64,000 nucleotides of DNA from Chrysomallon squamiferum (taxonomy: Eukaryota; Animalia; Mollusca): the NCBI GenBank assembly GCA_012295275.1, contig CM022668.1, positions 5,270,001-5,334,000 of the forward strand. The letters run 5' to 3'. Positions within the stretch are counted from its first letter, which is position 1. Each line of letters starts with the position of its first letter. The notes under the pieces were generated by a model. The model was not told the DNA's origin. It did no database searches and saw only the letters and a list, made by a program, of their open reading frames with translations. The position numbers and the translations under genes are program-made. Shown one piece after another: positions 10,471 through 56,275 of this stretch.

Positions 10471-10519
<49 letters not shown>

Positions 10520-11285
10520 TGATGGAAGTACACCATAGAGACTAACCTCATAATTGTTGCATAGCAAAATTTCTTTTTATTTATTCATTTTTCTTTATTA
10601 TTATTATTCGAATTTTCTAATCAGATAATTCATTTATACACCTTATAATCGGCTTATTAATTAGAATCATCAAAACATCTTAGTTTGGTCCATTGAAATG
10701 AATTAAGTTAAAAGACAACAAATTAGTCTTTATATTATTATTACTGTTGTTGTTGTTATTACTATTATTATTTTCCAAAATGTTAATTTTTTGCTTCTTT
10801 GTAAATTTAACAGCGCTTTAAAATAAAATTAACTACTCAGTACTGCTGCTTTTCAACAAGTAACTTACCACATCTGCAAAGAATATTTGATTATTCATGG
10901 TAACAACAGCAACAACCACCACCACAAAATTGACCAGTACTTTATAAACAAAACTGAGTTTAGTGATTAACCTGGGTTTGGTTTTGGATATAAATTATAA
11001 TGAAAATTAATGCCTACTGTCTATTTTTATGCTAATATTGTAAGATGTTTTCCCCAGTCACTCACTGGGAAACACAAATATACTAAATGCTAAGACTGAT
11101 GTTTGCTTACAGATGGGGAAACAAATAACATACATTTTATTGATCACGCCAATTTTTAAAATTGCCCACAGTGAAAGTAAATATAATGATCAGTTGTTCC
11201 CAGGTGTGACTTAATTTAAACTGTGTCTGTATCCTTTTTTCCAGATAAGAACTACATACCCTGTGTCTACTAAATAAGAAACAAA
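9090..11285 (+). promoter_or_regulatory. Upstream cassette of caspase copy 1: putative non-coding first exon (donor at 9470/9471), intron, acceptor near 11243
   Basis: CTGTGGACTGGCAG|GTAAAC is conserved in the paralogous cassettes, and TTTTTTCCAG lies ~42 nt before the ATG. IRF-E-like AAAAGTGAAAGC at 9637-9648 (-) and kB-like GGGGAAATCAC near 9356. Confidence 0.5.
9780..10820 (-). pseudogene. Partial chitinase duplicate (last two exons plus flanking introns)
   Basis: Exon 10407-10288 encodes the same peptide as 3865-3746. The last-exon copy starting at 10107 has TGG->TAG in the MFWSLD motif and indels. Homology stops near the exon-6 donor (~10820). Confidence 0.85.
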
Positions 11286-14200
11286 ATGTCTAACACTTTG
11301 CGAATGGATGCAGAGGATGAGGGAGGTGTTGATTTCAGATGTGTACTACTTAAAGTTGCTGGTGACCTGGTCAACAAGGACATTGATTCTCTGAAATTCT
11401 TGTGTCGCGAGTTTGCTCCATTGAGTCGACTGGAACATATAAAGAAGGGAACTGAACTGTTCAGCCTTCTTGAGAAAACAGGCAAACTGAAAGAAACAAA
11501 TAAGTGGGTTTTGGCCGAGATGTTAAAACGTATTAAGAGATTAGATCTGGTGGAAAAATTGCAGGTTGATGAGAAAGTACTGGATAAATATCTGTCCATG
11601 TATGGATCACATTTTTCACCATACAGAAATCTGCTTCTTGATCTTTCTGATGAAATCGGTGAAGAGGACTTGCATAAGTTGTTGTTTTGTTTTGCAGACA
11701 TTCCTAGTTCAAAGCTAGAAGACATTCACAGGGTGGTGAATTTTTTTCTAATTCTTGAACAGATGAAAAAAATTAGTCCTGGAAATGTTGACATTTTGGA
11801 AGGTTCTCTTAAGCAGATAGGAAGATTAGATTTAGTAGAAAAAATAAAGAACTTCAAACAGAAGATGAATGTAAATACAACATCTACAGTGGATCAGTCA
11901 GCTGTGATTAGGACTGCAAATAAACCTGAAGAACCAATACACCTTCCAATACAAAAGATGCAAGTAGAATATCCCAGTGAGCCAACAAAGCCTGGTAGGA
12001 CAACAGCAAGGGTTGTACCAAAGACTCCTCAGCCAACACAAAGTCCTCCTTCAGAACCAGGTAAAAAAAAAATCCCCAAAACCTTCTTAAACGACCCAAG
12101 ACTCATAAAACTGATAACTTAATTTGTATTGTAACTTTATTTTTATCCATTTGCATTACTGTATCAAAGAAACAAAATTAATGTAGAAATATTCCTGTAA
12201 ATGATCAGATTACATCAGTGTTTCTGTAAGTTATTTTCAAGCAAGGATTTCCATATTTTAACTTATCTTATTAGTTCTATCAATTATTTAAACTTTTCTA
12301 TTATTTATTATGCCTTCAACAATTTCAACTTTACTATTATTAGCAAACATTTATCAGCAATAAACTAAAATGTATTTACACTTTTTGTTTGCAGTTCAAA
12401 ATATTCACTTTAAATTGAAATGCTTAGTTTTACTTCCTTGTATTAATTAAGCCCTTTATTTTTATTTTTTTCTTCATTGTACTGTGTCAAATTTGTAGAT
12501 CTGTATTTAAATAGTGATTCTCTGGTTCATTTCTGAATTAAACAATTAATACGGTTATATCATTTTGACATACCAACAATGTTTTAACTTTGTTTTCTAT
12601 TTTATTTATTACATTTTGTTCATTATTCATTCATTCATTCATTCATTTATCATCATTATAATTATCATCATCATCTCATATTATTATTATTATTATCACA
12701 TTTGTTTATTTATGTTAAATTTTCTTAATTTTTAATTATTATTTCATTCATTTCTCATATCTATATATATTTCTATATATCTATATATATTTTTTCAGCT
12801 ATACCTGATACACTAATCCGTGATATTGCTCTGCATATATCAAACACGCAGTTCTTTGCCCTTGGAACCCAGTTGAATATTCCTGAATTAACACTACAAA
12901 ATATGAGTCAGGATCACCATTCACCTCTCGACAGAAATACTAACATGATCAAACTATGGCTCCAAACGATAAATAGCACTCATGATAGAAAAAAGATAAT
13001 AACAGATTTGTCCAAGGCCATGAGGAACTGCGAAATGACACAAATAGCAGCAGCACTGGAAACCATGTTTGGAATACAGCCACAAGGTAATGTTTTTGTT
13101 TGAAGTAAATCAGCACTCTGAAAATACAAACCAGTTGGCAAATATTCTAGAGTTCAGAGAGTGAAAAGTTTAAGCTATTACAGTGTCATTACCATTATCC
13201 CTCAAGATTTTATCACAAACTTACATTCACCAGTGAGTAAATTCCTTTATGATTTTATGTCACTAGTTACATTTTATATGTGTGTGTGTGTAATTTTTAT
13301 TTATATCTAAAATTTTAACTGCTCTTTTTATTTTTTATGAAAATATTTTGGTTTCAGATCCTAAGATCAGCAGTAGAGAACCAAGAGCAGATGAAGCTAC
13401 CACAACAGGTAAATATACATTTTATTAAATTTAAATTGGTTTTGGACAACATTTTTTTCTAATAAAGATCAGAATAAAAAGATATTTGTGACTTTGTTAC
13501 TTTTTAAACAGTCAGTATAAATGTGTTTACATCCAGTTAATTATTTTATCAGTCTAATTACTTTTATTCAAATACTATGTTATTAGCAAACCTGTATTCA
13601 ATAATTTATAAATATGCATACAAAATGTATTTAAACTATTTGTTTGCATTTGTGTGAGTGATTAATTGTGTGTGTGTGTGTGTGATTTTTATTTATGTTG
13701 AAAGTTCCATCTGCTGTTTTTATTTTTTATGAAAATATTTTGGTTTCAGATCCTGAGATCAGCATAAGAGAATCTAACAGAATAGGTAATTATACATTTT
13801 ATAAATTTTTCATTGCTTTTAGAGAAATTTGTTTTTCTAATAATGAAGTACTTTTTAAATAGAAAGTATAAATCTGTTTACTTCCAGTTGATTATATTAT
13901 TTGTGTTTGGAGGCCAGTCTTTTCTACAATATACAAGAAATTTTGTATTACTACAGGTCAAGTAAACATAAACATTTAACATGAATTTAATCTGACCATA
14001 CTATTGACATGTAATATTGCTAGTCAACAGAACTTGAATTTAATAATAAAGGTAATTTATTTCTGGTACTTTTTCCATATGGGTTGAAGAAAAAAAAAAA
14101 TATGACCTTAGATCTGGTACCATCATGTATTTTATTTCTATTTTTTTGAAAGAACAACAAGAAATAATTAATCTGCGTAGTTCTACTCTTTGTTATTTTA

Positions 14201-17200
14201 CGTTGTTATTATTAGCAAATAATTGACATCGCAAAACAAATAAAGAAATAAGATTAAGCTGCATTTTTATTTTTATTTTATAGCAGAATGTACCTTCAGT
14301 TCTCTTACTTATTAATTTTTAATTTTTCACTTATTTGTTGAAAATCACCAGAGAATAAGCAGTTAGAAAGAACAGATGCAGATCAGGATCCTTTCCGCTA
14401 CTACAAAATGGATGCTAATCCTCGAGGTATATTTTCAAATAAATATTTTACTAATTTGGGATCAGCAAAAAGAGGCCTTTTTAAAAATACTATTAGATTT
14501 GGGAAATGTAGTGGAGATGTATAATGTCATACACATAAACACTCATTCCTTTTTTTTTTTTTTCAGTGCTGTTTATGCAGACCAGCACTGCAAAAGATTT
14601 GATTCCCCAGTGTATAAGTCATGTTTCCCTGCTCTTACTGCACTCCTCTATATCTTGATGAGTGATTCATAAACACAGACCCAGTCTGGACTTTCCACAT
14701 TTATATCACTGTATCTCTCCCTCATTCTGTCTCTTTGTTTCTCTTTGTCTATCTCCCTTAAATTTATTCTTTATAATTCCATTAAATGTTTTTTTCTTCT
14801 CGTTTATTCTAGGAATATGTGTAATAATAAACAATAGAAATTTTTACATTGATCCAGTGAAGCCAGAAGCTAAAAAGTTGGAAGAAAGAAAGGGAACTGA
14901 TGTAGATGCTGGTAAGTTTTACTTAGAAAGAAAATAGCAGTAACAACAACAGCAACTATAGTAATAATAAAAATAACAGCATCAGTAACAATAACAATAA
15001 TAATGATAAAACAGTTTAAAAATATGTAAACAAATTTTATTTCTAGGTAAGCTGAAAGAAACCTTTTAAAAAAAACATTTGGTATTTATGTTTGAACACA
15101 CACATACACACATCAGTTATCATACTTAGTTTAAAAAGATGTATAATGTTTCCTTTCTAGGAGAACTGAGAAAAACTTTCAGTAATCTTCAATTTATCGT
15201 CAAAGAAAAAACAAATTTGACTGACACTGACATGGTTGAGGCTGTAAAGGACCTGGCTTTCTTTGATCACAGTGACTATGACTGTGTTGTGTGTTGTATT
15301 TTGTCACATGGAACTGAAGGTGCAATATACGGAAGTAATGGTTGTCTTGTAAAGGTCAGAGACTTGACTGAACCATTTAGACCTGAGTCGTGTCCAACAC
15401 TGAGTGGGAAACCAAAGTTGTTTTTTATGCAGGCTTGTCAGGGGAAGGAAAAACAACTAGGTATGTATGGCAGCTGTTAAAAATAATTTCTCAAAACTAC
15501 ATATATGATTTTTTGTTGTATTTAGTCACATACATATTAAACTGGTTGGCCTAAATCTGTGCAAATTGTCATCTCATTCTTTAATATATGAGAAAGATGT
15601 TTTGGGATTGAAGAATTTGCTACAAGTTCATACTGACATTGTCACAAATGATACATTTTTTAGGTTTTTGTGTTTATTTGCTCTAAAATATTTCATGTAT
15701 AGTTACAAATATCAGTATGGGTTTTGGTGTGAGTTTGTATGCAACTAGGATTAATACTTTTAAAATATCAGAACTTGATTTCTGATACATCTATTACAGG
15801 ATATGATACCCAGATAGACAGTGATATTGACATGGATGTTCAGCAGGAAGAAACAAACCCAGAAGAAGGAACAAACCCACAGGCAGAAAAAATCCCAAAT
15901 GAAGCAGATTTTCTGCTAGGATATGCCACAGTACCAGGTTTTGCGTCTTTCAGATCAAAATCAACTGGAACATGGTACATCACAAAACTGACAGAAACTT
16001 TAAATAAATGTGCTAAAAAGTAAGTAAATGGATTTTAGGATTGTATGAAATTTTAAGGGGAACCTTAATAATCAGCTTGAAGATTACAACTAATGTATTC
16101 TTGCAGAAATGACATATAATGCAGAAACATGGACACAAACAAGACAGACAAAGAACAAACTAACAACCAGACAAAATAATTGTTAAGCATCACATCATGA
16201 CCAAAAACCAACTCACCTGTATAAGATAAAACAAAGGTCATAGATATCTCTGATCAGGTTAGAAGCAGAACACAACAGCTGACCGATGATGATGAAATTT
16301 TAAAAATAAACAAATATTTTTTAATCTATATTGAGTTAGTCAGTCTTGTGACATCACTGAAATGTTGTCTTGAGGATTATTTTATTAGTATAAAAAAGAG
16401 GATCATCTACCTGTTCAGGAGATGAAGACATGCAGTTTACAAATTACTTTTATGATCACAATATTGACTGCTCGTTTGGAAATAAATGGCAGGTTCAAAC
16501 ACCTTTTAGTACTGTTTATGTTTACATATTTACAACTAGTTGCATATTTAAAATAAAAACAGAAGTGTACAATATTTGGGTACCATTATTGGCTATGACT
16601 TTGGTACTGTTCTTTGTGATCTTGACTAAGTGTTTAGTGATTTCACCTTGTTAACTAATACTGTTAGCTGGATGATGATTTTTCTAGGCAGAGCAAATTG
16701 ATTACTATAATAAAAACTGTCAATCAGTAAATCACAAAATTTAATAGAATGCATGCACATTATGTATAATATATATAATGTACATATGTTAGAAACATCT
16801 GTTACATATATGACTGTATTTTAGTTGGAACCTCCCAAGGAATGTTCCTACATTATCATGTTATCTAAAATGTACAAGAAATCATTTTCATTCTCCTTTC
16901 TGATCTTTAAAGAAAGTAATAAAAACATAATGCAGCTGGGACATTCATAGAGATCTCTCTTATATATATATATATAGTTAAAATATATATTTTTTTTTAG
17001 CTTCTGTATATGTTACTAGAATATTACTATTTATTACTTTTTTAAAGTTTATTTTCATTTTATTTATTTTTCAGAGAGGACATCTCTAGTTTGCTGCTGT
17101 TAGTAAATCATGAAGTATGTAAAGCAGACGCGACGATGGCAGGTGGTAGGTACAAGCAGTCACCAGCACTGTTCAGCACTTTGAGGAAGAAGCTGATATT

Positions 17201-17207
17201 CCGATGA
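11286..17207 (+). CDS. CASP8: Caspase-8-like initiator caspase, copy 1 (DED-DED-DD-p20-p10, ~658 aa), apparently intact
   Basis: Exons 11286-12060 (two DEDs, each with RLDL), 12799-13086 (death domain-like), 13358-13408, 13750-13785, 14352-14426 (YKMDANPRG), 14813-14911 (ICVIINN, ERKGTDVD), 15161-15460 (ILSHG, GKPKLFFMQACQG), 15800-16019 (IPNEADFLLGYATVPG), 17075-17207 (KQSP..STLRKKLIF). Phases are consistent (1977 nt). The symbol means caspase-8/10-like; orthology was not tested. Confidence 0.9.
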
Positions 17208-17444
17208 AGGACATTTTTTCATTTGTTTTATTTATTTTCAGTTGATGTTTGAACAACTCTGGTATAATCATGTTCATGTTTTATATTTTAACAGTTCTTA
17301 AATGTTTACATAATTAATGTCCGAAAATGGGGGTAACTACACAAAAACTAAGTAACAGTGTGTATGCAAACATACATGGGCTATTTAGAAACTTGGTTAT
17401 ATAATTAGTGGAAGTTCCATTATTTTATTCTGTAGTACAAACTC

Positions 17445-20400
17445 AAGTGATTCCTTTGTTTGTTAAGGAAGATACAATGATGAAAATTACATAGATATTC
17501 AAAATAACTGATTGTTATTTTATGGTGTAGTAAAGTTGCTAATTTGTTTAGAGAAATATAAAAAGTGTACATTTGATCTGTTTGAAAATAGTATCTAGTT
17601 TCTTGATTGTTTATCCACATCAGTGATGATATATACACTACATATACAAAAGCTGAAATAAATAAATACTTTATCAAATAATAACAGAAGGTTAACTTTT
17701 TAAATGTTTTATTTTTCTCTGCTGTATACAAATTCAAAAGAAACTCAAAAATACACAAAGTAAAAGTCAACAGTTTTCCCCCTTATACAATAATATCTAC
17801 TGCTAAATTTATCATGTACCAACAAAATGCACACCTATATACTATAGCAATTATTAATTTGCTTTCATTTATTACTTCTGTTTGTTTTTCTCAGATAATT
17901 AACACCTTGTCATGTGACGCTATTATAGTCTGCTACCCTTTAGACCGGACGAGCCAAATTTTAGGTATCAATACCACTCAGACTAGTCACTGTGACAGTA
18001 TTTTAGTTTTAAATCCAAGCTAAATTTTATAGGCTTTTTAATATTTTGTTTGTTTGTTTTTGCATGAAAAGTAAAAGAATAAATAAGCTCTGTTAACTTT
18101 AATGTTAGTGTTTCCTATTAAAAATGGACTAACAAACATTTGGTAAATTTTCAAGTGATTCAACTGTTTCAGAATTTTGCTTTTTAATATTTATAATTTT
18201 TATTTTTTGTTTGTTTTTGCATGAAAGATAAAAACACTAAATGCATTCTGTAAATTTTAAAATATTGTTTCTTGTTAAAGTGGACAAACAAACACCTGGT
18301 ACATTTTCAAGTGATTGCTTTGTTTGTTTGTTAAGGAAGATACAATGATGAAATGTTCAAAATAATTGATTCTTAATATATGGAGTAGTAAAGTTGTTAA
18401 TTTGTTTAAAGAAATGTAAAAAGTGTATGTTTGAAAATTGTATATAGTTTCTTGATTGTTTATCCACATGCATTAATGTTTCAAAGATAATATATATTAA
18501 TAACAACCTTGTATATAATATAAAATTTGTTGCCTCCCTAATTATGAATCATGTAATTCTTAAAGGAATTTTGTTTTGAGTTTGAAATGTATTTCTGCAT
18601 GAGAGTTAAAGAAAGAAGAGAAAGAATTTTGCCCTTTTTGAACTATTTAATTTTATTTTGTATTTCGTATCCATATATATCTAGTTTTACTGATCATAGT
18701 CTAAATATAATCAGTATATTTTAGACATAATATATTTATAAGATAAAATGAATTCTGTAAACTTTAAAGTTATTGTTTCTTGTTAAAGTGGATAAACAAA
18801 CATTTGGTACATTTTCAAGTGATTGCTTTGTTTGTTAAGGAAGATACAATGATGAAAATTACATAGATATTCAAAATAACTGATTCTTATTTTATGGTGT
18901 AGTAAAGTTGCTAATTTGTTTAAAGAAATATAAAAAGTGTACATTTGATCTGTTTGAAAATAGTATCTAGTTTCTTGATTGTTTATCCACATCAGTGATG
19001 ATATATACACTACACATACAAAAGCTGAAATAAATAAATACTTTATCAAATAATAACAGAAGGTTAACTTTTTAATGTTTTATTTTTCTCAGCTGTATAC
19101 AAATTCAAAAGCAACTCAAAAATACACAAAGTAAAAGTCAACAGTTATTCCCCCTTATACAATAATATCTACTGCTAAATTTATCATGTACCAACAAAAT
19201 GCACACCTATATACTATAGCAATTATTAATTTGCTTTCATTTATTACTTCTGTTTGTTTTTCTCAGATAATTAACACCTTGTCATGTGACGCTATTATAG
19301 TCTGCTACCCTTTAGACCGGACGAGCCAAATTTTAGGTATCAATACCACTCAGACTAGTCACTGTGACAGTATTTTAGTTTTAAATCCAAGCTAAATTTT
19401 ATAGGCTTTTTAATATTTTGTTTGTTTGTTTTTGCATGAAAAGTAAAAGAATAAATAAGCTCTGTTAACTTTAATGTTAGTGTTTCCTATTAAAAATGGA
19501 CTAACAAACATTTGGTAAATTTTCAAGTGATTCAACTGTTTCATAATTTTGCTTTTTAATATTTATAATTTTTATTTTTTGTTTGTTTTTGCATGAAAGA
19601 TAAAAACACTAAATGCATTCCGTAAATTTTAAAATATTGTTTCTTGTTAAAGTGGACAAACAAATACCTGGTACATTTTCAAGTGATTGCTTTGTTTGTT
19701 TGTTAAGGAAGATACAATGATGAAATGTTCAAAATAATTGATTCTTAATATATGGAGTAGTAAAGTTGTTAATTTGTTTAAAGAAATGTAAAAAGTGTAT
19801 GTTTGAAAATTGTATATAGTTTCTTGATTGTTTATCCACATGCATTAATGTTTCAAAGATAATATATATTAATAACAACCTTGTATATAATATAGAATGT
19901 GTTGCCTCCCTAATTATGAATCATGTAATTCTTAAAGGAATTTAGTTTTGAGTTTGAAATGTATTTCTGCATGTTAATTAAAGAAAGAAGAGAAAGAATT
20001 TTGCCCTTTTTGAACTATTTAATTTTATTTTGTATTTCGTATCCATATATATCTAGTTTTACTGATCATAGTCTAAATATAATCAGTATATTTTAGACAT
20101 AATATATTTATAAGATGAAATGAATTCTGTAAACTTTAAAGTTATTGTTTCTTGTTAAAGTGGATAAACAAACATTTGGTACATTTTCAAGTAATTGCTT
20201 TGTTTGTTAAGGAAGATACAATGATGAAAATTACATAGATATTCAAAATAACTGATTCTTATTTTATGGTGTAGTAAAGTTGCTAATTTGTTTAAAGAAA
20301 TATAAAAAGTGTACATTTGATCTGTTTGAAAATAGTATCTAGTTTCTTGATTGTTTATCCACATCAGTGATGATATATACACTACACATACAAAAGCTGA

Positions 20401-32282: not shown

Positions 32283-35200
32283 ATGTCTAACGCTTTCCGA
32301 ATGGATGCAGAGGACGAGGGAGGTGTTGATTTCAGATGTGTACTACTTAAAGTTGATGGTGACCTGCACAAGGAGGACATTGATTCTCTGAAATTCTTGT
32401 GTCGCGACTTTGCTCCATTGAGTCGACTGGAACATATAAAGAACGGAACTGAACTGTTCAGCCTTCTTGAGAAAACAGGCCAACTGAAAGAAACAAATAA
32501 GTCGGTTTTGGCCGAGATGTTAAAACGTATTATGAGGTTAGATCTGGTGGAAACATTGCAGGTTGATGAGAAAGAACTGGATAGATATCTGTCTGTGAGT
32601 GGATCACATTTTTCAGCATACAGAAATTTACTTCTTGATCTTTCTGATGAAATTGGTGAAGAGGACTTGCATAAGTTGTTGTTTTTTTCTGGAGACATTC
32701 CTAGAGCAAAGCAACAAAAGATTCACAGTGTGCTGGATTTTTTTCTCATTCTTGAACAGATGAAAAAAATTAGTCCTGAAAATGTTAAAATTTTGGAAGG
32801 TTCTCTTAAGCAGATAGGAAGATTAGATTTAGTAGAAAAAATAAAGAACTTCAAACAGAAGATGAATGTAAATATAACCTCTACAGTGGATCAGTCAGCT
32901 GTGATTAGGACTGCAAATAAACCTGAAGAACCAAAACACCTTCCAAAACAAAAGATACAAGTAGTCTATCCCAGTGAGCCAACAAAGCCTGGTAGGACAA
33001 CAGAGAGGGCTGTACCAAAGACTCCTCAACCAACACAAAGTCCTCCTTCAGAACCAGGTAAAAAAAAAAAAAAAAAAAAACCCAAAACCTTCTTAAATGA
33101 CCCAAGAATCATGTATTGTAAATTCTTATTTTCACAAAACTAAAAAATAAAGAAAAAAGATAAAAGCAGTGTAATAATATTCCTGTAAATGATCAGATTA
33201 CATTGGTGTTTCTGTAATTTATTCTCAAGGATTTCCATATTTTAACTTATGTTATTAGTTTTATCAATTATTTAAACTTTTCTATTATTTATTATGTCTT
33301 CAACAATTTCAACATTACTAATAAACAAAATAATACCACAATAAAATGGAAAATGTCAACATCTATAATTAATCAGTGTAATTACTTTTATTCAAATACT
33401 TTATTATTAGCAAACATTTATCACCAGTAAACTAATAAAATCAATAATATATAAATATGTATTTATACTTTTTGTTTGCATTTCAAAATATTCACTTTAA
33501 ATTGAAATGCTTACTTTTACTTCCTTTTATTAATTAAGTTTCTTATTTTTATTTTTTCTTCAGTATTATGTGTGAAATTTGTAGATCTGTATTTAAGTAG
33601 TGATTCCCTGGTTTCTTTTCTGAATTAAACAATTAATCCTTTTGACATGTTTTCACTTACATAGAACATTTAGATCTGTATTTAAGTAGTGATTCCCTGG
33701 TTTCTTTTCTGAATTAAACAATTAATCCTTTTGACATGTTTTCACTTACATAGAACATTTAGATCTGTATTTAAGTAGTGATTCCCTGGTTTCTTTTCTG
33801 AATTAAACAATTAATCCTTTTGACATGTTTTCACTTACAAGAACATTTAGATCTGTATTTAAGTAGTGATTCCCTGGTTTCTTTTCTGAATTAAACAATT
33901 AATCCTTTTGACATGTTTTCACTTACATAGAACATTCTACTTACAAAGATCAGGGACTGTCTTTAGTTATCTCTTTCTTTTTTTTTTCTTTCTTTTGTTA
34001 ATTATTTGTCTATTTATCGATTACATTTTGTTCATTATTCATTCATTGATTCATTCATCATGATTATAATTATTATCATTCGATTCATTGTCATCATTGT
34101 ATTATTATTATTTTTATCATATTTTATGTTTATGTTAAATTTTTAATTATTCATTATTGTTTGATTCATTTCTCATATATATCTATATATATAAATGTAT
34201 TTTTTTTTCAGCTATACCTGATACACTAATCCATGATATTGCTCTGCATATATCAAACATGCAGTTCTTTGCCCTTGGAACCCAGTTGAATATTCCTGAC
34301 TTAACACTACAAGATTTGAGTCAGTATCACCATTCACCTCTCGACAGAAATACTAACATGATGAAACTGTGGCTCCAAATGATAAATAGCACTCATGATA
34401 GAAAAAAGATAATAAGAGATTTGTCCAAGGCCATGAGGAACTGTGAAATGACACAAACAGCAGCAGCACTGGAAAACATTTGGAATACAAGGTAATGTTT
34501 TAGTTTGAAGTAAATCAGCTCTCTGAAAACACAAAACAGTTGGCAAATATTCTAGAGTTCAGAGAGTGTAAAGTTTAAGCTATTTCAGTGTCATTACCAT
34601 TATCCCTCAAGATTTGATCACAAACTTTCATTCACCAGTAACTGTTTTTCTTTAATGATTTTTATGTCTCCTGTTACATTTTATGTTTATATATCATTGT
34701 GTGTGTCTGTTTTTATCTATTTTTAAAAGTTCTATCTGCTGTTTTATCTTTTTTTTTAATGAAAATATTTTGGTTTCAGATCCTGAGATCAACAGAAGAG
34801 AACAAAGGACACATGAAGCTAACAGAACAGGTAATTGTACATTTTATAAATTTTTCATTGCTTTCAGAGAAATTTATTTTTCTAATAATGAAGCACAGAA
34901 TAAGAAGATTATTTGAGATTTGTTACTTTTTTAAACAATGTTTTCACTTACATGGAACATTCTAATTCCAAAAATCAGCAAATTATCTTTATTTTTCTTT
35001 TTTCTGTTTGTCTATTTATTTACTACATTTTGTTCTTTGCTCATTCATTCATCATCGTTATATTATTATTATTATTATTATATTTGTTAATTTATTAAAT
35101 TTTCTTAATATTTGTTTATTTTTTCAATCCTTTTTTCATATTTTGTTTTTTCATTTTAACTCTTTTTTTCAGATTTGAAATAGTTAAACTTTTTTAGGAG

Positions 35201-37054
35201 TCATTACCAAAATTCCGTCTGCTGTTTTTTATTTTTTATGAAAATATTTTGGTTTCAGATCCTGAGATCAGCATTACAGAACGAAGAGCAGATGAAGCTA
35301 CCACAACAGGTAAATATACATTTTATTAATTTTAAATTGCTGTGGAACAACATTTTTTTCTAATAAAGATCAGAATAAAAATATATTTTTCTAATAACGA
35401 AGAAGAGAATAAGAAGACATTTGAAACTTTGTTACTTTTTAAACAGTCAGTATAAATGTGTTTACATCGAATTAATTGTTTTTTCAGTCTAAATACTTTT
35501 ATTCAAATACTATGTTATTAGCAAACATTTATCACCAGTAAACTGATAAAATCAGTAATTTATAAATATGTATACAAAATGTATTTAAACTATTTATTTG
35601 CATTTGTGTGAGTGTTTTATTTATGTGTGTGTGGAATGTTTATTTATGTCGAAAGTTCTATCTGCTGTTTTTATTTTTTATGAAAATATGTTTCAGACCC
35701 TGAGATCAGCATAAGAGAACAAAGGACCCATGAAGCTAACAGAATAGGTAATTATACATTTTATAAATTTTTCATTGCTTTTAGAGAAATTTGTTTTTCT
35801 AATAATGAAGTACAGAATAAGAACATATTTGAGATTTTGTTACTTTTTAAATAGAAAGTATAAAGCTGTTTACTTCCAGTTGATTTTATTATTTATTTTT
35901 GGAGGCCAATCTTTTCTATTTAAAATATACGAGAAACTTTGTATTACCACAGGTCAAGTAAACTTAAACATTTAACATAAAGTTAATCTGACCATAATAT
36001 TGACATGTAATATTGCTAGTCAACAACACTCGAATTTAATAATAAAGGTAATTTATTTCTGGTACTTTTTCCATATGGCTTGAAGAAAAACAAAAATGAA
36101 ACCTAGATCATGTATTTTATTTATATTTTTTGAAAGAACAACAAGAAATGATTCACCTGCATAGTTCTACTCTCTGTTATTTTATCATTTTACGTTATTA
36201 TTAGCAAATAATTGACATCGTAAAACAAATAAAGAAATCAGATTAAGCTGCACATATTTTAATTTTATAGCAGAACTTACTTTGAGTTGTGTTACTTATT
36301 TATTAATTTTTAATTTTTAATTTTTCAATTATTTATTAAAAATCACCAGCAAATCAGAATCCAAACGTCGTACAGCAGTTAGAAAGAACTGATGTAGACC
36401 AGGATCCTGTCCCCTACTACAAAATGGATGCTAATCCTCGAGGTATATTTTCAAATAAATATTTTACTAATTTGGGATCAGCAGGAAGAGGCGTCTTTAA
36501 TAACAGTAATAGATTTGGTACAAACAATATAGGTGAGAGGTATAATATGTCAAACATACATATTCATTCATGTTTTTATGCCTTTGTGATTTGTTTGGTG
36601 CTGTTTTTGTTTAGACGATTTCACTCTCTGAAAGAGATAAAATGAAAAAAAAAATATGAAAAAAGGATTGAAATTCATGAATAATTAGGAAAAGTTAATA
36701 AATAAACAAATATAATAATAATAAGATAATGATGATGAATGAATGAGCAAACAACAAAAACATTCCCCAGTGTATAAGTCATGAATCCCTGCTCTTATTC
36801 CACCTAATGTATTCTGATGAGTGATTCTTAAACACAGACAGACTGGGTTTCCAAGTTTCATCTCTCATTCTGTCTCTCTGCTTCTTTCCGTCTACCTGCC
36901 TTATATTTATCCTTTAAATATATAAATGTATGTTTTTTTTTCTGTTTTATTCTAGGAATATGTTTAATAATCAACAATAGAGATTTTAAGAAGGATTCAG
37001 TGAAGCCAGGAGCTAAAATGTTGGAAAAAAGAGAGGGAACTGATGTAGATGCAG
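32283..37054 (+). pseudogene. Caspase-8-like copy 2: frameshift at the end of the DD exon (DED-DED-DD-only product or pseudogene); remainder lost in the gap
   Basis: Exons 32283-33057, 34212-34491 (280 nt versus 288 in paralogs), 34780-34830, 35259-35309, 35697-35747, 36350-36442, 36956-37054. The stop comes at 34495 if unspliced, or 4 nt into the next exon if spliced. Confidence 0.8.
33583..33937. repeat. 89-bp minisatellite, 4 copies, in intron 1 of copy 2
   Basis: AGATCTGTATTTAAGTAGTGATTCCCTGG... at 33583, 33672, 33761, 33849. Confidence 0.95.
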
Positions 37055-38116: not shown

Positions 38117-40734
38117 ATGTCTAACACTTTGCGAATGAATGCAGAGGACGAGGGAGGTTTTGATTTCAGATGTGTACTACTTGAAGTTGATGGTGACCTG
38201 CACAAGGAGGACATTGATTCACTGAAATTCTTGTGTCGCGAGTTTGCTCCATTGAGTCGACTGGAACATATAAAGAACGGAACTGAACTGTTCAGCCTTC
38301 TTGAGAAAACAGGCAAACTGAAAGAAACAAATAAGTGGGTTTTGGCCGAGATGTTAAAACGTATTATGAGGTTAGATCTGGTGGAAACATTGCAGGTTGA
38401 TGAGAAAGAACTGGATACATATCTATCCATACATGGATCAAATTTTTCACCATACAGAAATCTACTTCTTGATCTTTCTGATGAAATCGGTGAAGAGGAC
38501 TTGCATAAGTTGTTGTTTTGTTCTGGAGACATTCCTAGAGCGAAGCAACAAAAGATTCACAGTGTGCTGGATTTTTTTCTCATTCTTGAACAGATGAAAA
38601 AAAATTAGTCCTGAAAATGTTGACATTTTGGAAGGTTCTCTTAAGCAGATAGGAAGATTAGATTTAGTAGAAAATATAAAGAACTTCAAACAGAAGATGA
38701 ATGTAAATATAACCTCTACAGTGGATCAGTCAGCTGTGATTACATTTGGAAGGACCAGTACACGTGAAGAACAAGTACAACATCCAAAACAAAAGATACA
38801 AGTAGTCTATCCCAGTGAGCCAACAAAGCCTGGTAGGACAACAGCGAGGGTTGTACCAGAGAATCCTCAACCAACACAAAGTCCTGCTTCAGAACCAGGT
38901 AAAAAACAAAAAAAAAAACAACCCCAAAACCTTCTTAAATGACCCAAGAATCATGTATTGTAAATTTTTATTTTCACAAAAAATAAAAAAAATAAAAGCA
39001 GTGTAATAATATTCCTGTAAAGGATCAGATTACATTAGTGTTTCTACCATTTATTCTCAAGGATTTCCATATTTTAACTTATCTTATTAGTTCTATCAAT
39101 TATTTCAACTTTTCTGTTATTTATTATGCCTTCAACAATTTCATCATTACTAATAAACAAAATAATACCACAATAAAATGGAAAATGTCAACATCTATAA
39201 TTAATCAGTGTAATTACTTTTATTCAAATACTTTATTATTAGCAAACATTTATCACCAGTAAACTAATAAAATCAATAATATATAAATATATATTTATAG
39301 TTTTTGTTTGCATTTCAAAATATTCACTTTAAATTGAAATGCTTACTTTTACTTCCTTTTATTAATTAAGTTTCTTATTTTTATTTTTTCTTCAGTATTA
39401 TGTGTGAAATTTGTAGATCTGTATTTAAGTAGTGATTCCCTGGTTTCTTTTCTGAATTAAACAATTAATCGTTTTGACATGTTTTCACTTACATAGAACA
39501 TTTAGATCTGTATTTAAGTAGTGATTCCCTGGTTTCTTTTCTGAACTAAACAATTAATCTTTTTGACATGTTTTCACTTACATAGAACATTTAGATCTGT
39601 ATTTAACCAGTGATTCCCTGGTTTCTTTTCTGAATTAAACAATTAATCCTTTTGACATGTTTTCACTTACATAGAACATTTAGATCTGTATTTACGTAGT
39701 GATTCCCTGGTTTCTTTTCTGAATTAAACAATTAATCCTTTTGACATGTTTTCACTTACATAGAACATTCTGCTTGCAAAGATCAGGGAGTGTCTTTAGT
39801 TATCTCTTTCTGGTTTTTTTCTTTCTTTTATTAATTATTTGTCTATTTATCGATTACATTTTGTTCATTATTCATTCATTGATTCATTCATCATCATTAT
39901 AATTATTATCATTCGATTCATTGTCATCATTGTATTATTATTATTTTATCATATTTTTATGTTTATGTTAAATTTCTTAATTATTCATTATTGTTTGATT
40001 CATTTCTCATATATATATATATATTTATTTATTTATTTTTTTCCCAGCTATACCTGATACACTTATCCGTGATATTGCTCTGCATATATCAAACACGCAG
40101 TTCTTTGCCCTTGGAACCCAGTTGAATATTCCTGACTTAACACTACAAGATTTGAGTCAGTATTATCATTCACCTCTTGAGAGAAATACTAACATGATCA
40201 AACTGTGGCTCCAAATGATAAATAGCACTCATGATAGAAAAAAGATAATAACAGATTTGTCCAAGGCCATGAGGAACTGTGAAATGACACAAACAGCAGC
40301 AGCACTGGAAACCATGTTTGGAATACAGCCACAAGGTAATGTTTTTGTTTGAAGTAAATCAGCTCTCTAAAAACACAAAACAGTTGGCAAATATTCTAGA
40401 GTTCAGAGAGTGTAAAGTTTTAAGTTATTTCAGTGTCATTACTATTATACCTCGGAACTTTATCACAAAATATCATTCACCAGTAACTAAATATTTTTAT
40501 GATTTTATGTATCTAGTAACATTTTATATGTGTGTGCGTGTGTAATTTTTATTGATTTCTAAAGTTTCATCTTCTGTTAATATTTAATGAGAAATTTTTC
40601 TTTGAGATCCAGAGATCAGTATAAGAGGGAAAAGGGCACATGAAGCTAACAGAACAGAAGAGGTAATAATACATTTTATAAATTTTTCATAGCTTTTGGA
40701 CATTTTTTCTTTATTCATTCATTCATCATTATTA

Positions 40735-40802
<68 letters not shown>

Positions 40803-43800
40803 TAGCTTATTTATTAAATTTTCTTACTTATCTGTTATTCTATTGCTTTTTCACATTTTTATTTTTATTTGAACTTTTTCTTTCACAAAGTGGAAAGATT
40901 AAACTATTTCAGTGTTGTTATCTTCTCTGTTTACTTTTTATGAAAATATTTTGGTCTCAGGTAAAGAAATCAGCATGAGAGAACAAAGAGCACAGGTATC
41001 TAACAGAACAGGTAATTATATATTTTATTAATTTTTCATTGCTTATTTTTCTAATAATGAAGTACAGAATAAGAAGATATTTGTGACTTCGTTACTTTTT
41101 AAACAGTTAGTATAAATCTGTTTACATCCAGTTGATTGTTTTATGAGTCTAATTATTTTTATTTAATATTATATTATTAGCAGTAATTTATAGTAATTTA
41201 TAAATTTATATATACAAAATATGTTTTTTACCTTTTCTATCTTTTAAACAAAAGTATACATTTTAAAATTTTTCTGTTTGTTTTCAGTTGATTGAACATA
41301 TTTATTTTGTTACTTTTTAAATTTTTGGAGGCCAGTGATTTTATTATGGAGGCCAGTCTTTTCTGTTTAAAATATACGAGAAACTTTGTATTACCACAAA
41401 TCAAGTAAACTTACAACATTGTAACATGAATTTAATCTGACCATAATATTGACGTGTAATATTGCTAGTCAGTATCATTCCAATTTAATAAAGGTAATTT
41501 ATTTCTGGTATATGGCTTGAAGAAAATAAATAAAAAATGTGACCTTAGACCTGGTACCAATATGTATTTTATTTATATTTTTTTAAAGAACAGCAAAAAA
41601 AATGATTCACCTGCTTGGTTCTAGTCTTTGTTATTTTATCATTTTCTATTATTATTAGCAAATAAGTGACATCGCAAAACAAATAAAGAAATCAGATTAA
41701 GCTGCATATATTTTAATTTTATAGCAGAACTTACTTTGAGTTGTGTTACTTATTTATTAATTTTTAATTTTTGAATTATTTATTACAAATCACCAGCAAA
41801 TCAGATTCCAAACGTTGTACAGCAGTTAGAAAGAACTGATGTAGATCAGGGTCCTGTCCCCTACTACAAAATGGATGCTAATCCTCGAGGTATATTTTCA
41901 AATAAATATTTTATTAATTTGGGATCAGCAGGAAGAGGCCTCTTTAATAACAGTATATTTGGTACAAACAATATAGGTGAGAGGTATATGTCACACAAGC
42001 ATTTTCATTCATCTTTTTTTATGCCTTTGTGATTTGTTTGATGCTGTTTATGTTTAACTATTTCACTCTCTGAAAAAAAGAGTTAAAATGAAAAAAAATA
42101 TGAAAAAGGATTGAAATTACGAATAATTAGAAAAAGTTAATAAATAAACAAATATAATAATAATAAGATAATGATGATGAATGAATGAGCAAACAACAAA
42201 ATGTAGATTTGAATTCCCCAGTGTATAAGTCATGAATCCCTGCTCTTATTCCAGCTAATGTATTCTGATGAGTGATTCTTAAACACAGACAGACTGGGTT
42301 CTCCAAGTACGCATCTCTCATTCTGTCTCTCTGCTTCTCTCCGTCTACCTGCCTTATATTTATACTTTATATTTCCATTAAATGTATGTTTTTTTCTTCT
42401 GTTTTATTCTAGGAATATGTTTAATAATCAACAATAGAGATTTTCAGAAAGATTCAGTGAAGCCAGGAGCTAAAGATTTGCAAATAGAGAGGGAACTGAT
42501 GTAGATGCAGGTAACTGTTACTTTGAAAGAGAATAGTAGTAACAACAACAACAACAATAGTAATAATAAAAATAACAGCATCAGTAACAATAACAGTAAT
42601 AATAATATTGGTAATAAAATTACTTCTAATGACAAATAATTATAAGATAGTAATTGTAATAAAAGTAATAATAATGGTAATGAAGGTTTGTTTACATATG
42701 GCAAGTATCTTTCTCTCTCTCTTATACATAGTGTTTTTGAAATGAAATCCATACAATATTTAGATATTTATAGAGAGATTTATTCATTTCCATAATTAAT
42801 TATATCCCATTTTTTCACCTTTCAGAATATGTATAAAGGAAGGAAATCAATGCTCAAACACCATCTATTAAATTTTATTTTTTTTTTTTTTTTCATACCA
42901 ACATACACATACACACACATCAGTATTTCATACAAATTTTATTTCTAGTTACGCTGAAAGAAACCTTTTAAAAAAAATATTTGATATTTATGTTTGAACA
43001 CACACATACACACATCAGTTATCATACTTAGTTTAAAAAGATGTATAATGTTTCCTTTCTAGGAGAACTGAGAAAAACTTTCAGTAATCTTCAATTTATC
43101 GTCGAAGAAAAAACAAATTTGACTGACACTGACATGGTTGAGGCTGTAAAGGACCTGGCTTTGTCTGATCACAGTGGCTATGACTGTTTTGTGTGTTGTA
43201 TTTTGTCACACGGAGACAAAGGTGTGATATACGGATGTAACGGTTTGCCTGTACGGATCAGAGACTTGACTGGACCATTTAGACCTGAGTCGTGTCCAAC
43301 ACTGAGTGGGAAACCAAAGTTGTTTTTCATGCAGGCTTGTCAGGGTGAAGAAGAACAAAAAGGTATGTATGGCAGCTGTTAAAAATAATTTCTCAAAACT
43401 ACATATATGATTTTCTGTTGTATTTAGTCAGATACATATTATACTGAGTGGCCTAAATCTGTGAAAATTGCCATGTCATTGTTTAATACATGAGAAAGAC
43501 ATTTTGGGGTTTAAGAATTTGCTACAAATTTATACTAACATTGTCCACAAATGATAACATTTTTTGTGTTTATTTGTTCTAAAATACTTCATGTATAGTT
43601 ACAAATATCTGTATGGATTTTGGTATGAGTTTGTATGTAATTAGGATTAATATTTTTAAAATATCAGAACTTAATTTCTAATACATCTATTTACAGGATA
43701 TGATACAGAGATAGACAGTGATATTGAAAAGGATGTTCAGCAGGAAGAAACAATCCCAAATGAAGCAGATTTTCTGTTAGGATATGCCACAGTACCAGGT

Positions 43801-45415
43801 TTTGTGTCTTACAGATCAACATCAACTGGATCCTGGTACATCACAAAACTGACAGAAATTTTAAATAAATATGCTAAAAAGTAAGTAAATGAATTTTATA
43901 ACTGTATAAAATCTTAAGGGGAAACTTAAGAATCAGCTTGAAGATTACAACTAATGTATTCTTGCAGAAATGACATATAATGCAGAAACATGGACACAAA
44001 CAAGACAGACAAAGAACAAACTAACAACCAGACAAAATAATTGTTAAGCATCACATCATGACCAAAAACCAACTCACCTGTATATGATGAAACAAAAGTC
44101 GTAGATATCTCTGATCAGGTTAGAAGCAGAACACAACAGCTGACCGATGATGATGAAATTTTGAAAATATACAAATATTTTTTTTAAACTATTGAGTTAG
44201 TCTCAGTCTTGTGACATCACTGAAATGTTGTCTTGAGGATTATTTTATCAGTATAAAAAAGAGGATCATCTACCTGTTCAGGAGATAAAGATATGCAGTT
44301 TACAGATTGCTTTTATGTTCACAATATTGACTGCCTGTTTGGAAATAGATTGGAGGTCAAACACCTTTTAGTACTATTTATGTTTAGATATATACAACTG
44401 TTGCATTATTAAAATAAAAATAGAAAAACACTGGTTTAAGAAGTTTGGGTACCACTGTTTGCTGTGACTTTGTCTAAGTGTTTTGTGATGTCACATGTTG
44501 TTAACTAATACTGTTAGCTGGATGATGATTTTTCTAGGCAGGGCAAATTGATTACTGTAATAAAACTTTCAATCAGTAAATCACGAAATTTAGTAGAATT
44601 CATGCACACGATATGTAATATATATAATGTACATATGTTAGAAACATCTTTTACATATGACTGTATTTTAGTTGGAACCTGTGAAGGAATGTTCCTACAT
44701 TATCATGTTAACTAAAATGTACAAGAAATCATTTCGGTTCTCCTTTCTGATCTTTTAAGAAAGTAATAAAAACATAATACAGCTGGGACTTACATACAGA
44801 TCTGTTTTATACATATATATATTTAACTTTTTTTTATTTTTTTTTATATTTTTCAGAGAGGACATGTATATGTTATGTAAAGAAAACGATGAATATTACT
44901 ATTTATTACTTTTTAAAATTTATTTTCATTTTATATATTTTTCAGAGAGGACATCCTCAGTTTGCTCTTGTTAGTAAATAATGAAGTATGGAAACGGAAC
45001 GCCACGATGAATTATGGTACATACAAGCAGTCCCCAGCACCATTGTACACACTGAGGAAGAAGCTGATATTCAAGTGAAGCAGAACTTTTTAAACTGTAT
45101 ATATTTTTCAGAGAGGACATCCTCAGTTTGCTCTTGTTAGTAAATAATGAAGTATGTAAAGAAAACGCCACGATGAATGATGGTACATACAAGCAGTCCC
45201 CAGCACCATTGTACACACTGAGGAAGAAGCTGATATTCAAGAGAAGCAGAACTTTTCATTTGTATAGTTATTTTAAACTGAATATATATTTCAGAGAGGA
45301 CATCCACGATTTGCTGCTGTTAGTAAATAACAAAGTATGTAAAAGAAATGTCAGAATGATGAAGCAGTCACCAGCACTGTTCAGCACATTGAGGAAGAAG
45401 CTGATATTCACGTGA
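38117..45415 (+). CDS. Caspase-8-like copy 3 (DED-DED-DD-caspase) with two 1-nt homopolymer frameshifts (pseudogene or consensus errors) and three alternative last exons
   Basis: Exons 38117-38898 (A8 instead of A7 at 38597-38604), 40048-40335, degenerate microexon 40607-40662, 40961-41011, 41797-41889, 42413-42510 (98 versus 99 nt), 43063-43362 (SHG, QACQG), 43697-43880. Terminal exons: 44946-45078, 45112-45415 (read-through) and 45295-45415. Confidence 0.75.
39415..39769. repeat. 89-bp minisatellite, 4 copies, in intron 1 of copy 3
   Basis: Same unit as 33583-33937, period 89. Confidence 0.95.
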
Positions 45416-53578: not shown

Positions 53579-54189
53579 CTTAAGAATTAAACTATTTCAG
53601 CAGGCAGTAAGATACAACTAGTTTTCACTTTTGATTATTCATACTTAAAATACGTACTTCATTAATAAATACTTTTCCCAACAAATATTTTAAGATAAAA
53701 TTAATTACTCAATACTATTGCTTTTCATAGATCGGTTTCAACAAGTAACTTACCACATCTCCAAAGAATATTTGATTATTCATGGTAATAACAACCACAA
53801 AATTGACCAGTACTTTATAAGCAAAATTGAGTTTAGTGATTAACCTAGGTTTGGTATATACTGCATATAAAGTATGATGAAAATTAATGACTACTGTATG
53901 TTTAGTTCATATACTAATATTGTAAGATTTTTCCCCAGTCACTCACTGGGAAACACAAATCTACTAAATGATAACACTGATGTTTCTTTACAGATGGGTA
54001 AACATATAATATACATTTTACTGATCACATCAATTTTTTTATTTTAAAGAAATACCTGTATGCCTTGAGTGTGTCAGAGAAAGGAAATATAATCAGTTGT
54101 TCACAGGCGTGAATTAATTTAAACGCTGTCTGTACACTGTTTTCCAGACAAGAACTGTAGAACTGAGACTAATAAATAAGAACAAAATA

Positions 54190-55433
54190 ATGAACTTTAA
54201 ACTGACATTCAATGTCAACAAAATATGCATAGAATCTATAAATAAACCTGAAAAAGTACAACTTCTAAAATATGTGATGAAAGAACAATATCGCAGACAG
54301 CCACCCATTCAGGAAAAGAAGACTCATGTTTGGAGAGCAGGTTAAAAAAAAAAAAAATCTTCTTAAATGACCAAAGAATCATAAAACTTAATTTAATTTG
54401 TGTTGTAACTTTATGTTGAAAACCAAAATAATATAGAAATATTCCTGTAATTACCTCAATGTTTCTGTAATTTATTCTTTGAATCAAAGATTTCCGTATT
54501 TTAACTTTTATTAGTTCTATGAATGATTTCAACTTTCCTATTATTTATTTGTTCCTTCAACAATTTCATCATTACTAATAAACAAAATAATACCACAACA
54601 AAAAGGAAAATGACAGCATCTAATACTCAGTCTAATTATTTTTTATCCAAATACTATATTATTAGCAGACATTTATCATCAGTAAAGTAATAAAAACGAA
54701 TAATTTATAAATATGCATACAAAATGTATTTACACTTTCTGTTTTCATTTCAAAATGTTTATTTTAAATCGAAATGCTTAATTTTACTTCCTTGTATTAA
54801 TAAGTTTGTATCTATTTTAATTTTTTTCTTCTATGTACTATGGGTAATCTGTAGGTGTGCATTTTTATAGTGATTCCCTGGTTTCATTTCTAAATTAAAC
54901 AATTAATACCGTTATATCATTATATTATATTTATTATTATTATCATATTTGTTTATTTGTTACATTTTCTTAATTATTCGTTATTATTTCATTCATTTTT
55001 CATATCTGATACACTAATCCATGATATTGCTCTGCATATATCAACCAAGCAGTTCTTTGCCCTTGGAACCCTGTTGAATATTCCTGACTTAACACTACAA
55101 AATATGAGTCAGCATTCCTATTCATCTCTTGAGAGAAATATTAACATGATAAAACTATGGCTCCAAATGAGAAATAGCACTCATGATAGAAAGAAAAAGA
55201 GAAGATAATAACAGATTTGTCCAAGGCCACGAGAAACTGCGAAATGCCACAAGATAATGTTTTAGTTTGAAGTAAATCAGCTCTCTGAAAACACTAAACA
55301 GTTGGCAAATATTCTAGAGTTCAGAGAGTGTAAAGTTTTAAGCTATTTAAGTGTCATTACCATTACCCCTAAGATTTTATCACAAACTTTCATTCACCAG
55401 TGACTAAATTTCTTTATGATTTTAGTTACATTT

Positions 55434-55473
<40 letters not shown>

Positions 55474-56275
55474 TTTTATTTATGCTACTTATTTATTGAA
55501 AACCGCCAGAGAATCAGATTTAAAAAGTGGTACAGCAGTTCCAAAAAACTGATGTAGACCAGGATCCTGTTCCCTAGCAATAACAGTAATGATAATGATA
55601 ATAAAATTAATGCTAACAACAAATAACAATTTGATAGTAATAGTAATAAAAGCAATGACAAAAATGAAAGTCTGTATATGTGTGTATATGTCCCTGTAAT
55701 TTATAGTGTTTTATCTCATAATATTCATTCAATATTTAGATATTTGTTGAGAGATTTATTCACTTACGTAATTAATTATGTGCCGTTTTTTTTCACCTTT
55801 CAGAATATATACGTATGTCATAACGAAAATCACATGTTCAAACATAACCTATTGAAAAAATATTAAACATTTTTTGGAACAACACACACACACACACACA
55901 CACACACATCAATTATATATACCAAGTTTTAAAATATGTAACATTTTTCATTTCTAGTTACACCGAAAGAAACTTTTGAGAAACTTCAATTCATCATCAA
56001 ATACAAAGAAAATGTGTCGGACACTGACATGGATGAACTTGTATATAAACTGGCTTCATTTGATCACAAGAACTTTGACTGTGTTGTGTTTTGTATTTTG
56101 TCACATCGAACTGAAGGTGTGGTATACGGATGTAACGGTTTGCCTGTACGGATCAGAGATTTGACTGAACCATTTAGACCTAAGTCGTGTCCAACACTGA
56201 GTGGGAAACCAAAGTTGTTTTAAATGCAGGCTTGTCAGGGGAAGGAAAAACAACAAGGTATGTATGGCAGCTGTT
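54190..56275 (+). pseudogene. Caspase-8-like copy 4, collapsed pseudogene lacking both DEDs
   Basis: Exon 1 is reduced to 54190-54340 (linker only). The DD exon (~55003-55255) has lost its acceptor and is frameshifted, and the YKMD exon is partial (~55510-55575). The p20 exon ~55958-56258 has SHR for SHG and a TAA at 56221-56223 just before MQACQG. No p10 exons. Confidence 0.85.

What the first reader, a model, noticed from the sequence alone, without database searches (positions are those of the whole stretch)
11286..17207. Caspase-8-like protease with a built-in death domain (DED-DED-DD-caspase): possible FADD-caspase-8 fusion logic
Seen: a symmetric phase-1, 288-nt exon (12799-13086) sits between the tandem DEDs and p20. 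It encodes IPDTLIRDIALHISNTQFFALGTQLNIPELTLQNM...NMIKLWLQ...LSKAMRNCEMTQIAAALE, which follows the death-domain pattern (LG..L.I, ML..W, L..AL..C...IA), and it is present in all four paralogs. Established: vertebrate caspase-8/10 have only DED-DED-caspase and need FADD (DED-DD) to dock on DD receptors and adaptors. Inference: exon shuffling produced an initiator caspase that could bind DD platforms (TNFR, MyD88, RIPK/IMD-like) without FADD. I cannot tell whether this architecture has already been reported in this lineage.
Basis: partly seen in the sequence, partly recalled or inferred. Interest (0 to 1): 0.85.

Follow-up and report, generated by a model that had tools for sequence, protein, structure and literature searches.

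The report
Snail caspase-8B with built-in death domain
This is a real, spliced snail gene for a cell-death protease carrying an extra docking domain (a death domain) that likely helps it join death-signalling complexes, a design already published for mussels and oysters, so it is a new member of a known kind.

Summary
Nine GT-AG exons give an open 658-aa DED-DED-DD-caspase with His491/Cys534. The 288-nt exon folds as a six-helix death domain (pLDDT 93.6; the top seven structural matches are DDs). RNA contigs from 4 of 4 runs (one study) cover it and splice it onward; the upstream joint is only indirectly supported.

The architecture is already published as bivalve caspase-8B (Mc8B, Cg8B; PMC7836458), where the mussel DD is reported, second-hand, to bind Fas and FADD DDs. 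The nearest relative is a Gigantopelta aegis protein with the same layout (50% identity). A DD profile finds the domain in 53 of 120 listed homologs and in none of 38 vertebrate rows. The DD is therefore old in bivalves and gastropods, not a recent shuffle or a FADD fusion; molluscs keep FADD.

'All four paralogs' is overstated: only this copy is intact. One lead remains: an abalone isoform and two Gigantopelta paralogs lack the DD, suggesting an on/off cassette. The scan's earlier notes showed no report of this architecture.

The parts
11286..12060 (+). Exon 1: both DEDs (DED2 about aa 113-193) and a Pro/Gln/Thr-rich linker; both DEDs lie in one exon
   Evidence: PF01335, two stretches, E 4.9e-39; best PDB hits caspase-8 and cFLIP DEDs
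12799..13086 (+). Exon 2: death domain, 288 nt, phase 1-1 (about aa 260-347)
   Evidence: RNA cover and 3' joint
13358..13408 (+). Exon 3: 51-nt linker mini-exon
   Evidence: GT-AG joints 13086-13358 and 13408-13750
13750..13785 (+). Exon 4: 36-nt linker mini-exon, a duplicate of exon 3's 5' part
   Evidence: 93.75% over 48 nt to exon 3 with its acceptor; joints
14352..14426 (+). Exon 5: end of linker and start of p20
14813..14911 (+). Exon 6: p20
   Evidence: joints in 4 of 4 runs
15161..15460 (+). Exon 7: p20 core with catalytic His491 (SHG) and Cys534 (QACQG)
   Evidence: (PF00656 E 6.6e-28)
15800..16019 (+). Exon 8: Asp-rich intersubunit linker (candidate self-cleavage sites) and p10
   Evidence: (E 7.2e-12)
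17075..17207 (+). Exon 9: end of p10 and stop codon
   Evidence: contig ends running on from 16019 begin with this exon's first bases
32283..37054 (+). Copy 2: exon 1 intact, DD exon 34212-34491 is 280 nt (frameshift), gene cut off by the N gap at 37383-37582
38117..45078 (+). Copy 3: DD exon 40048-40335 intact; frameshifts in exon 1 (one in an A run) and exon 6; last exon triplicated up to 45415
54149..56257 (+). Copy 4: relic; DED exon mostly lost, DD exon without splice sites and frameshifted, stop in p20

Best explanation
The gene encodes a spliced gastropod initiator caspase of the mollusc caspase-8B type (DED-DED-DD-p20-p10) whose death domain likely gives it a second docking contact with death-domain platforms, in addition to the usual DED contact with FADD. 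Shown here: the domain order, the DD fold, the intact His/Cys dyad, spliced transcripts, and the same layout across gastropods and bivalves. From the literature: molluscs keep FADD, and the mussel homolog kills human cells and its DD binds Fas and FADD DDs (second-hand). Inferred: a ligated TNF-receptor-type or cytosolic DD platform recruits FADD; the zymogen binds FADD and other zymogens through its tandem DEDs; its DD, held on long disordered linkers, reaches back to join the DD layer, which raises avidity and may allow some direct docking; clustering dimerises the protease, which cuts itself at Asp sites in the intersubunit linker and activates effector caspases. The DD was probably gained once, before bivalves and gastropods split, and is lost or skipped in some paralogs and isoforms.
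For: Architecture and fold. Catalytic motifs and an Asp-rich linker aligned with a mammalian caspase-8 linker. Splicing. Nearest homolog G. aegis XP_041374913, same Pfam set, 50.5% over 687 columns, sister at SH-aLRT 99. Its full-length model shows DED pair, DD and caspase as separate well-folded units joined by low-confidence linkers (pTM 0.39). P0031 is ADB80146, the published Mc8B. A DD is found in 53 of 120 listed homologs (52 are the profile's own seeds) and in 0 of 38 named vertebrate rows. An AU test does not reject one clade of the 20 DD-type mollusc rows (p 0.446). Literature passages: PMC7836458, PMC11463336, PMC10923776.
Against: No binding or activity was tested here. The window DD has no detectable pairwise similarity to the Mc8B DD (14% in alignment), so Mc8B's partners may not carry over. 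The profile link alone does not prove one origin, because human FADD DD scores as high on a similar profile (46 bits). Neither quick tree recovered gastropod and bivalve DD-bearers as one supported clade; one search put the bivalve group with DD-less annelid, brachiopod, chiton and deuterostome rows at SH-aLRT 99. The joint 12060-12799 is not among the 15 joints shown; support is indirect (contigs leave the genomic sequence exactly at 12060 and at 12799). The RNA runs are one study and mix paralogs or alleles.
Confidence: 0.65

Rival explanations
1. FADD bypass: the DD docks the zymogen directly on death receptors or RIPK/IMD/MyD88-like DD platforms, so the protein is its own adaptor and FADD is dispensable for it.
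For: True DD fold; FADD DD is the top sequence-profile hit in the PDB (E 4e-11) and the top Foldseek hit; Mc8B DD reported to bind human Fas DD (PMC7836458 passage).
Against: Molluscs keep FADD, and it is predicted in silico to bind DED caspases (PMC11463336). The FADD preference is slight (46 bits against 39 THOC1, 38 PIDD, 37 RIPK1; VIA ranks PIDD and ankyrin-G first or tied). MyD88 DD scores poorly (E 0.63). I found no FADD-null test in the passages read.
Confidence: 0.2
2. The DD is a regulatory or targeting module and not an activating dock: it restrains the zymogen, sets its location, or routes it to NF-kB/IMD-type signalling, and skipping the exon gives the apoptotic form.
For: DD-less versions occur naturally: H. 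rufescens isoform X2 lacks exactly the 96-aa DD and is otherwise identical to X1, and two G. aegis paralogs lack it. In amphioxus bbtCaspase-1/2 (DED-DD-caspase) the DD sets nuclear location and binds FADD2 (PMC3196919 passages).
Against: Full-length M. californianus caspase triggers apoptosis in human cells (PMC10923776 passage). No DD-skipping joint is among the joints shown for this gene. The DD-less records are predicted gene models whose RNA support I could not see.
Confidence: 0.12
3. A literal, lineage-specific fusion of FADD (DED-DD) with a caspase-8 by recent exon shuffling.
For: The DED2-DD order resembles FADD; the exon is symmetric phase 1; the DD profile ranks FADD first.
Against: DED2 matches caspase-8 (42 bits) and cFLIP (36) well above FADD (27). 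Both DEDs share one exon, and about 65 residues of linker separate DED2 from the DD. The same layout is in G. aegis, abalone, limpets, caenogastropods and bivalves. Six exons share the phase. An ancient capture of a FADD-like DD exon is not excluded.
Confidence: 0.03

Closest known systems
Bivalve caspase-8B: Mytilus californianus Mc8B (ADB80146 / D6BU26) and Crassostrea gigas Cg8B (AKP95634); Vogeler et al. 2021, PMC7836458, citing Sakamaki et al. 2014, PMID 25205508
   Same: DED-DED-DD-p20-p10 order, QACQG site, DD on its own exon, DD in the middle of a long linker.
   Different: Gastropod; shorter linkers (658 against 862 aa); DD sequence diverged beyond pairwise detection; both DEDs on one exon here, whereas the paper reports one exon per DED in oyster; strict orthology not resolved by my trees.
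Gigantopelta aegis LOC121387773 (XP_041374913) and Haliotis caspase-8/10-like proteins (P0006-P0008)
   Same: Same Pfam architecture (PF01335, PF00531, PF00656); G. aegis is 50.5% identical over the full length, 46% in the DD, and sister in both trees; it also has close paralogs on one contig.
   Different: Annotated by pipelines only; two G. aegis paralogs lack the DD, while the extra copies in this window are broken.
Vertebrate caspase-8/10 with FADD (DISC)
   Same: Tandem DEDs closest to caspase-8/cFLIP in the PDB, His/Cys dyad, Asp-rich intersubunit linker.
   Different: No DD: 0 of 38 named vertebrate rows score on the DD profile; they depend on FADD.
Amphioxus bbtCaspase-1/2 (DED-DD-caspase), PMC3196919
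   Same: A death domain inside a caspase prodomain that binds a FADD death domain.
   Different: One DED, and a caspase-2-related catalytic domain; a separate origin.

Membership tests
Caspase-8/10-type DED initiator caspase | Tandem DED prodomain | tested here: met
   PF01335 two stretches E 4.9e-39; best PDB hits caspase-8/cFLIP
Caspase-8/10-type DED initiator caspase | p20 and p10 with His/Cys dyad and QACQG | tested here: met
Caspase-8/10-type DED initiator caspase | Proteolytic activity, self-cleavage and activation of effector caspases | not testable with these tools
   needs an assay; reported for mollusc homologs (PMC7836458, PMC10923776 passages)
Mollusc caspase-8B (Vogeler 2021) | Two DEDs followed by a DD | tested here: met
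Mollusc caspase-8B (Vogeler 2021) | DD on a single exon of its own | tested here: met
   exon 12799-13086
Mollusc caspase-8B (Vogeler 2021) | Groups with Mc8B/Cg8B by caspase-domain phylogeny | tested here: inconclusive
   quick trees only; not recovered as a supported clade; AU test does not reject one clade, p 0.446; Cg8B itself was not identified among my rows (other Crassostrea/Magallana proteins were used)
Mollusc caspase-8B (Vogeler 2021) | DD binds Fas and FADD death domains | not tested
   reported for Mc8B only, second-hand; no complex prediction was run
Death domain (DD) subfamily of death folds | Six-helix bundle closer to DDs than to CARD, DED or PYD | tested here: met
   six helices, pLDDT 93.6; Z 10.8-13.4 for seven DDs against 9.5 CARD and 8.6 DED
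Death domain (DD) subfamily of death folds | Pfam PF00531 gathering score | tested here: not met
   21.3 bits against 22.6; 17 of 28 aligned mollusc DDs hit PF00531 at E up to 0.01, so Pfam under-calls this group
FADD-caspase-8 fusion | DED next to the DD derived from FADD | tested here: not met
   DED2 scores caspase-8 42 bits, cFLIP 36, FADD 27

The most novel reading that the evidence does not exclude
Across gastropods the death domain of caspase-8B is a 288-nt cassette that is switched by alternative splicing and by paralog-specific loss, so one locus yields an adaptor-independent, receptor-docking initiator (DD in) and a FADD-dependent, vertebrate-like one (DD out); the domain is far more widespread in mollusc caspase-8 than annotated because Pfam misses most copies.
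Probability: 0.2. Interest if true: 0.5.

Novelty: new member of a known kind. Interest (0 to 1): 0.2.

Why it matters
The architecture is not new. What this adds is range: the DD-bearing caspase-8 described for mussel and oyster extends to gastropods and is under-annotated (13 of 120 listed homologs flagged by Pfam, 53 by a dedicated profile). Natural DD-plus and DD-minus pairs (abalone isoforms, Gigantopelta paralogs) make the open question of what the DD does for FADD dependence directly testable.

Tried and rejected
No whole genome is held for the window, so FADD, death receptors and further paralogs of this organism were not checked. The word-indexed search with the DD exon alone found nothing among 35 candidates; the representative search found one unnamed 146-aa relative. 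Foldseek gave no hit at E 0.001 or better, though its top rows are DDs. Pairwise BLAST of the window DD against Mc8B found nothing. The careful tree did not finish, so only quick trees are used (61 rows, 33 rows, both chosen by me from the 120 listed homologs); the second AU test did not finish. dN/dS between copies ranged 0.42 to 1.44 on very few changes, which is uninformative. The absence of a DD-skipping joint is no evidence, because contigs drop rare forms. Phase symmetry as a mark of shuffling was rejected because six exons share it. Sakamaki 2014 is not held. Six paper searches showed no paper on a gastropod DED-DED-DD caspase or on splicing of its DD, but the library lacks most subscription journals and I saw most hits only as listings. 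Earlier scan notes: none near this place, none with all search words. No complex prediction was run.
Full report
Gene model. Splicing nine exons (11286-12060, 12799-13086, 13358-13408, 13750-13785, 14352-14426, 14813-14911, 15161-15460, 15800-16019, 17075-17207) gives 1977 nt and an open 658-aa protein, with GT-AG at every intron (one search was a first pass with wrong boundaries). Pfam finds two DEDs in exon 1 (E 4.9e-39), Death in exon 2 (E 2.9e-4; 21.3 bits, below the 22.6 cut-off) and the caspase domain in exons 7 and 8. His491 and Cys534 (QACQG) are intact, followed by an Asp-rich linker that lines up with a mammalian caspase-8 linker (the position of His491 is counted from the sequence). 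Exons 2 to 7 are all phase 1-1, so the symmetry of the DD exon is not a special mark.

Is exon 2 a death domain? Yes. A profile seeded on the mussel Mc8B linker domain and iterated over the linkers of the fetched homologs, with the window and all Gigantopelta rows left out, converged on 52 sequences. It scores the window protein 36.9 bits (E 1.8e-11) at residues 260-347. The exon alone scores 43.4 bits, against a maximum of 16.9 in 1000 shuffles. A 28-row alignment headed by the exon finds FADD DD first in the PDB (E 4e-11), then THOC1, PIDD, RIPK1, ankyrin and TNFR1 DDs. AlphaFold gives six helices at pLDDT 93.6. Foldseek's top rows are DDs, none at E 0.001 or better. VIA-align ranks seven DDs first (Z 13.4 to 10.8), ahead of the best CARD (9.5) and DED (8.6).

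Is it in mRNA? Five runs hold part of the stretch, four on record as RNA, all four from one study. Those four were laid on 10800-16400. The DD exon is covered in 4 of 4. GT-AG joints were seen for 13086-13358 (one run exactly, two more as a variant form), 13086-13750 (two runs), 13408-13750 (four), 13785-14352 (one), 14426-14813 (four), 14911-15161 (four) and 15460-15800 (two). Loose ends at 16019 continue into exon 9. The joint 12060-12799 is not among the 15 joints shown (one was hidden, and rows were dropped at the repeat before the acceptor). However, a contig in X3 leaves the genome at 12060 with 40 letters to spare, and one in X4 leaves it at 12799 with 28. No joint skipping the DD is shown, which proves nothing with contigs. 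Many contigs are 90-95% alike, so paralogs or alleles are mixed in.

Paralogs. DD-like sequence occurs in four places, but only copy 1 is intact. Copy 2 (32283-37054) has 2-nt and 6-nt deletions in the DD exon (280 nt, frameshift) and ends at the N gap. Copy 3 (38117-45078) has an intact DD exon and frameshifts in exons 1 and 6. Copy 4 (about 54149-56257) has lost its DEDs and DD splice sites and has a stop in p20. Copies 2 and 3 flank the gap and are 88-93% alike over long blocks, so a haplotype join cannot be excluded.

Relatives. The only hit of the DED search among longer proteins was Gigantopelta aegis LOC121387773, 675 aa, with Pfam DED, Death and caspase, 50.5% identical over 687 columns. 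It is the sister of the window protein in both trees (SH-aLRT 90 and 99), which marks the window as gastropod. A search with it gave 721 hits, of which 120 were listed. Pfam flags Death in 13 of the 120; the profile finds it in 53 of the 120 (52 seeds plus the Gigantopelta protein), in abalones, limpets, caenogastropods, many bivalves and one crinoid. It finds none in the 38 named vertebrate rows, nor in the Lingula, chiton, Tubifex, Lineus, amphioxus, hemichordate, Acropora or pulmonate rows. P0031 is ADB80146, the Mc8B of the literature. The trees do not recover gastropod and bivalve DD-bearers as one supported clade, but an AU test does not reject it (p 0.446). The window DD and the Mc8B DD are unalignable pairwise. 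A single early gain is thus likely but not shown.

DD in, DD out. Haliotis rufescens isoform X2 (XP_046377170, 540 aa) is identical to X1 (636 aa) except for a missing 96-residue block that is the DD, the same length as the window's exon. G. aegis paralogs P0003 and P0004 lack 94 and 117 residues covering the DD. These are predicted records whose RNA support I could not see.

Literature. PMC7836458 (passages, first part of section 10, supplement rows) defines bivalve caspase-8B as two DEDs plus a DD (Cg8B, Mc8B), reports one exon per domain in oyster, and states that the Mc8B DD binds the DDs of human Fas and FADD, citing Sakamaki 2014, which I could not read. PMC10923776 (passages) cites the same paper for apoptosis induction by the M. 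californianus caspase in human cells. PMC11463336 (passages) reports FADD in gastropods and bivalves. PMC3196919 (passages) describes an amphioxus DED-DD caspase whose DD binds FADD2. PMC10967218, PMC12066828 and PMC4558505 (passages) added nothing on this point.

Mechanism. Both DEDs match caspase-8 and cFLIP better than FADD, so this is a caspase-8 with an inserted DD and not a FADD fusion. The model of the Gigantopelta ortholog shows the DED pair, the DD and the protease as independent units on disordered linkers. With FADD retained in molluscs, the most economical reading is a two-point dock: DEDs to FADD and to other zymogens, DD to the DD layer of the platform, then dimerisation, self-cleavage and effector activation (steps from established caspase-8 biology, inferred here). 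Full FADD bypass and a restraining or targeting role remain open.

Verdict. Observation confirmed, with the paralog claim overstated. The architecture is published; this is a new gastropod member. Interest 0.2.

Noticed in passing
window 3094-10584 and 24004-24450, minus strand: Exons of GH18 chitinase-like genes (PF00704) lie upstream of copy 1, with a partial duplicate; a similar first-exon fragment lies between the caspase copies.
   Followed up: partly
window 47531-47875 and 57452-57853, minus strand: An NHL-repeat exon (PF01436) and a coiled-coil-like exon suggest a TRIM/NHL-type gene; caspase relic copy 4 would lie inside it on the opposite strand.
   Followed up: no
proteins P0073, P0074, P0079 (Patella): Limpet caspases with CARD-DD-caspase architecture (PF00619 plus a DD by profile); the two placed in the tree group with limpet DED-DED-DD caspase-8 (SH-aLRT 96), suggesting the DEDs were swapped for a CARD.
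   Followed up: partly
protein P0093 (Antedon mediterranea): A crinoid caspase-8-like protein also has DED, Death and caspase domains: either an independent gain or a deeper origin.
   Followed up: no
window 12823-13053: RNA contigs in 3 of 4 runs match both ends of the DD exon but not its middle (non-canonical ends, 229 nt); probably a more diverged paralog, unexplained.
   Followed up: no
window 44946-45415: The last exon of copy 3 is triplicated in tandem with different C-terminal ends.
   Followed up: partly
window 17435-20633: Tandem duplication of about 1.4 kb period at 98.7% identity just downstream of copy 1.
   Followed up: no
window 31090-31588 and 37583-38082: The sequence right after the N gap is 98% identical to the region upstream of copy 2, so copies 2 and 3 may be haplotypes joined at the gap.
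   Followed up: partly
window 9013-11287 against 25218-26113, 29630-30451, 61273-62667: Further copies of the caspase upstream region without a detectable coding exon 1: remnants of more duplicates.
   Followed up: no
protein P0082 (Dreissena polymorpha): A partial record joins a caspase domain to PF04598 (recalled as gasdermin); may be a gene-model artefact.
   Followed up: no
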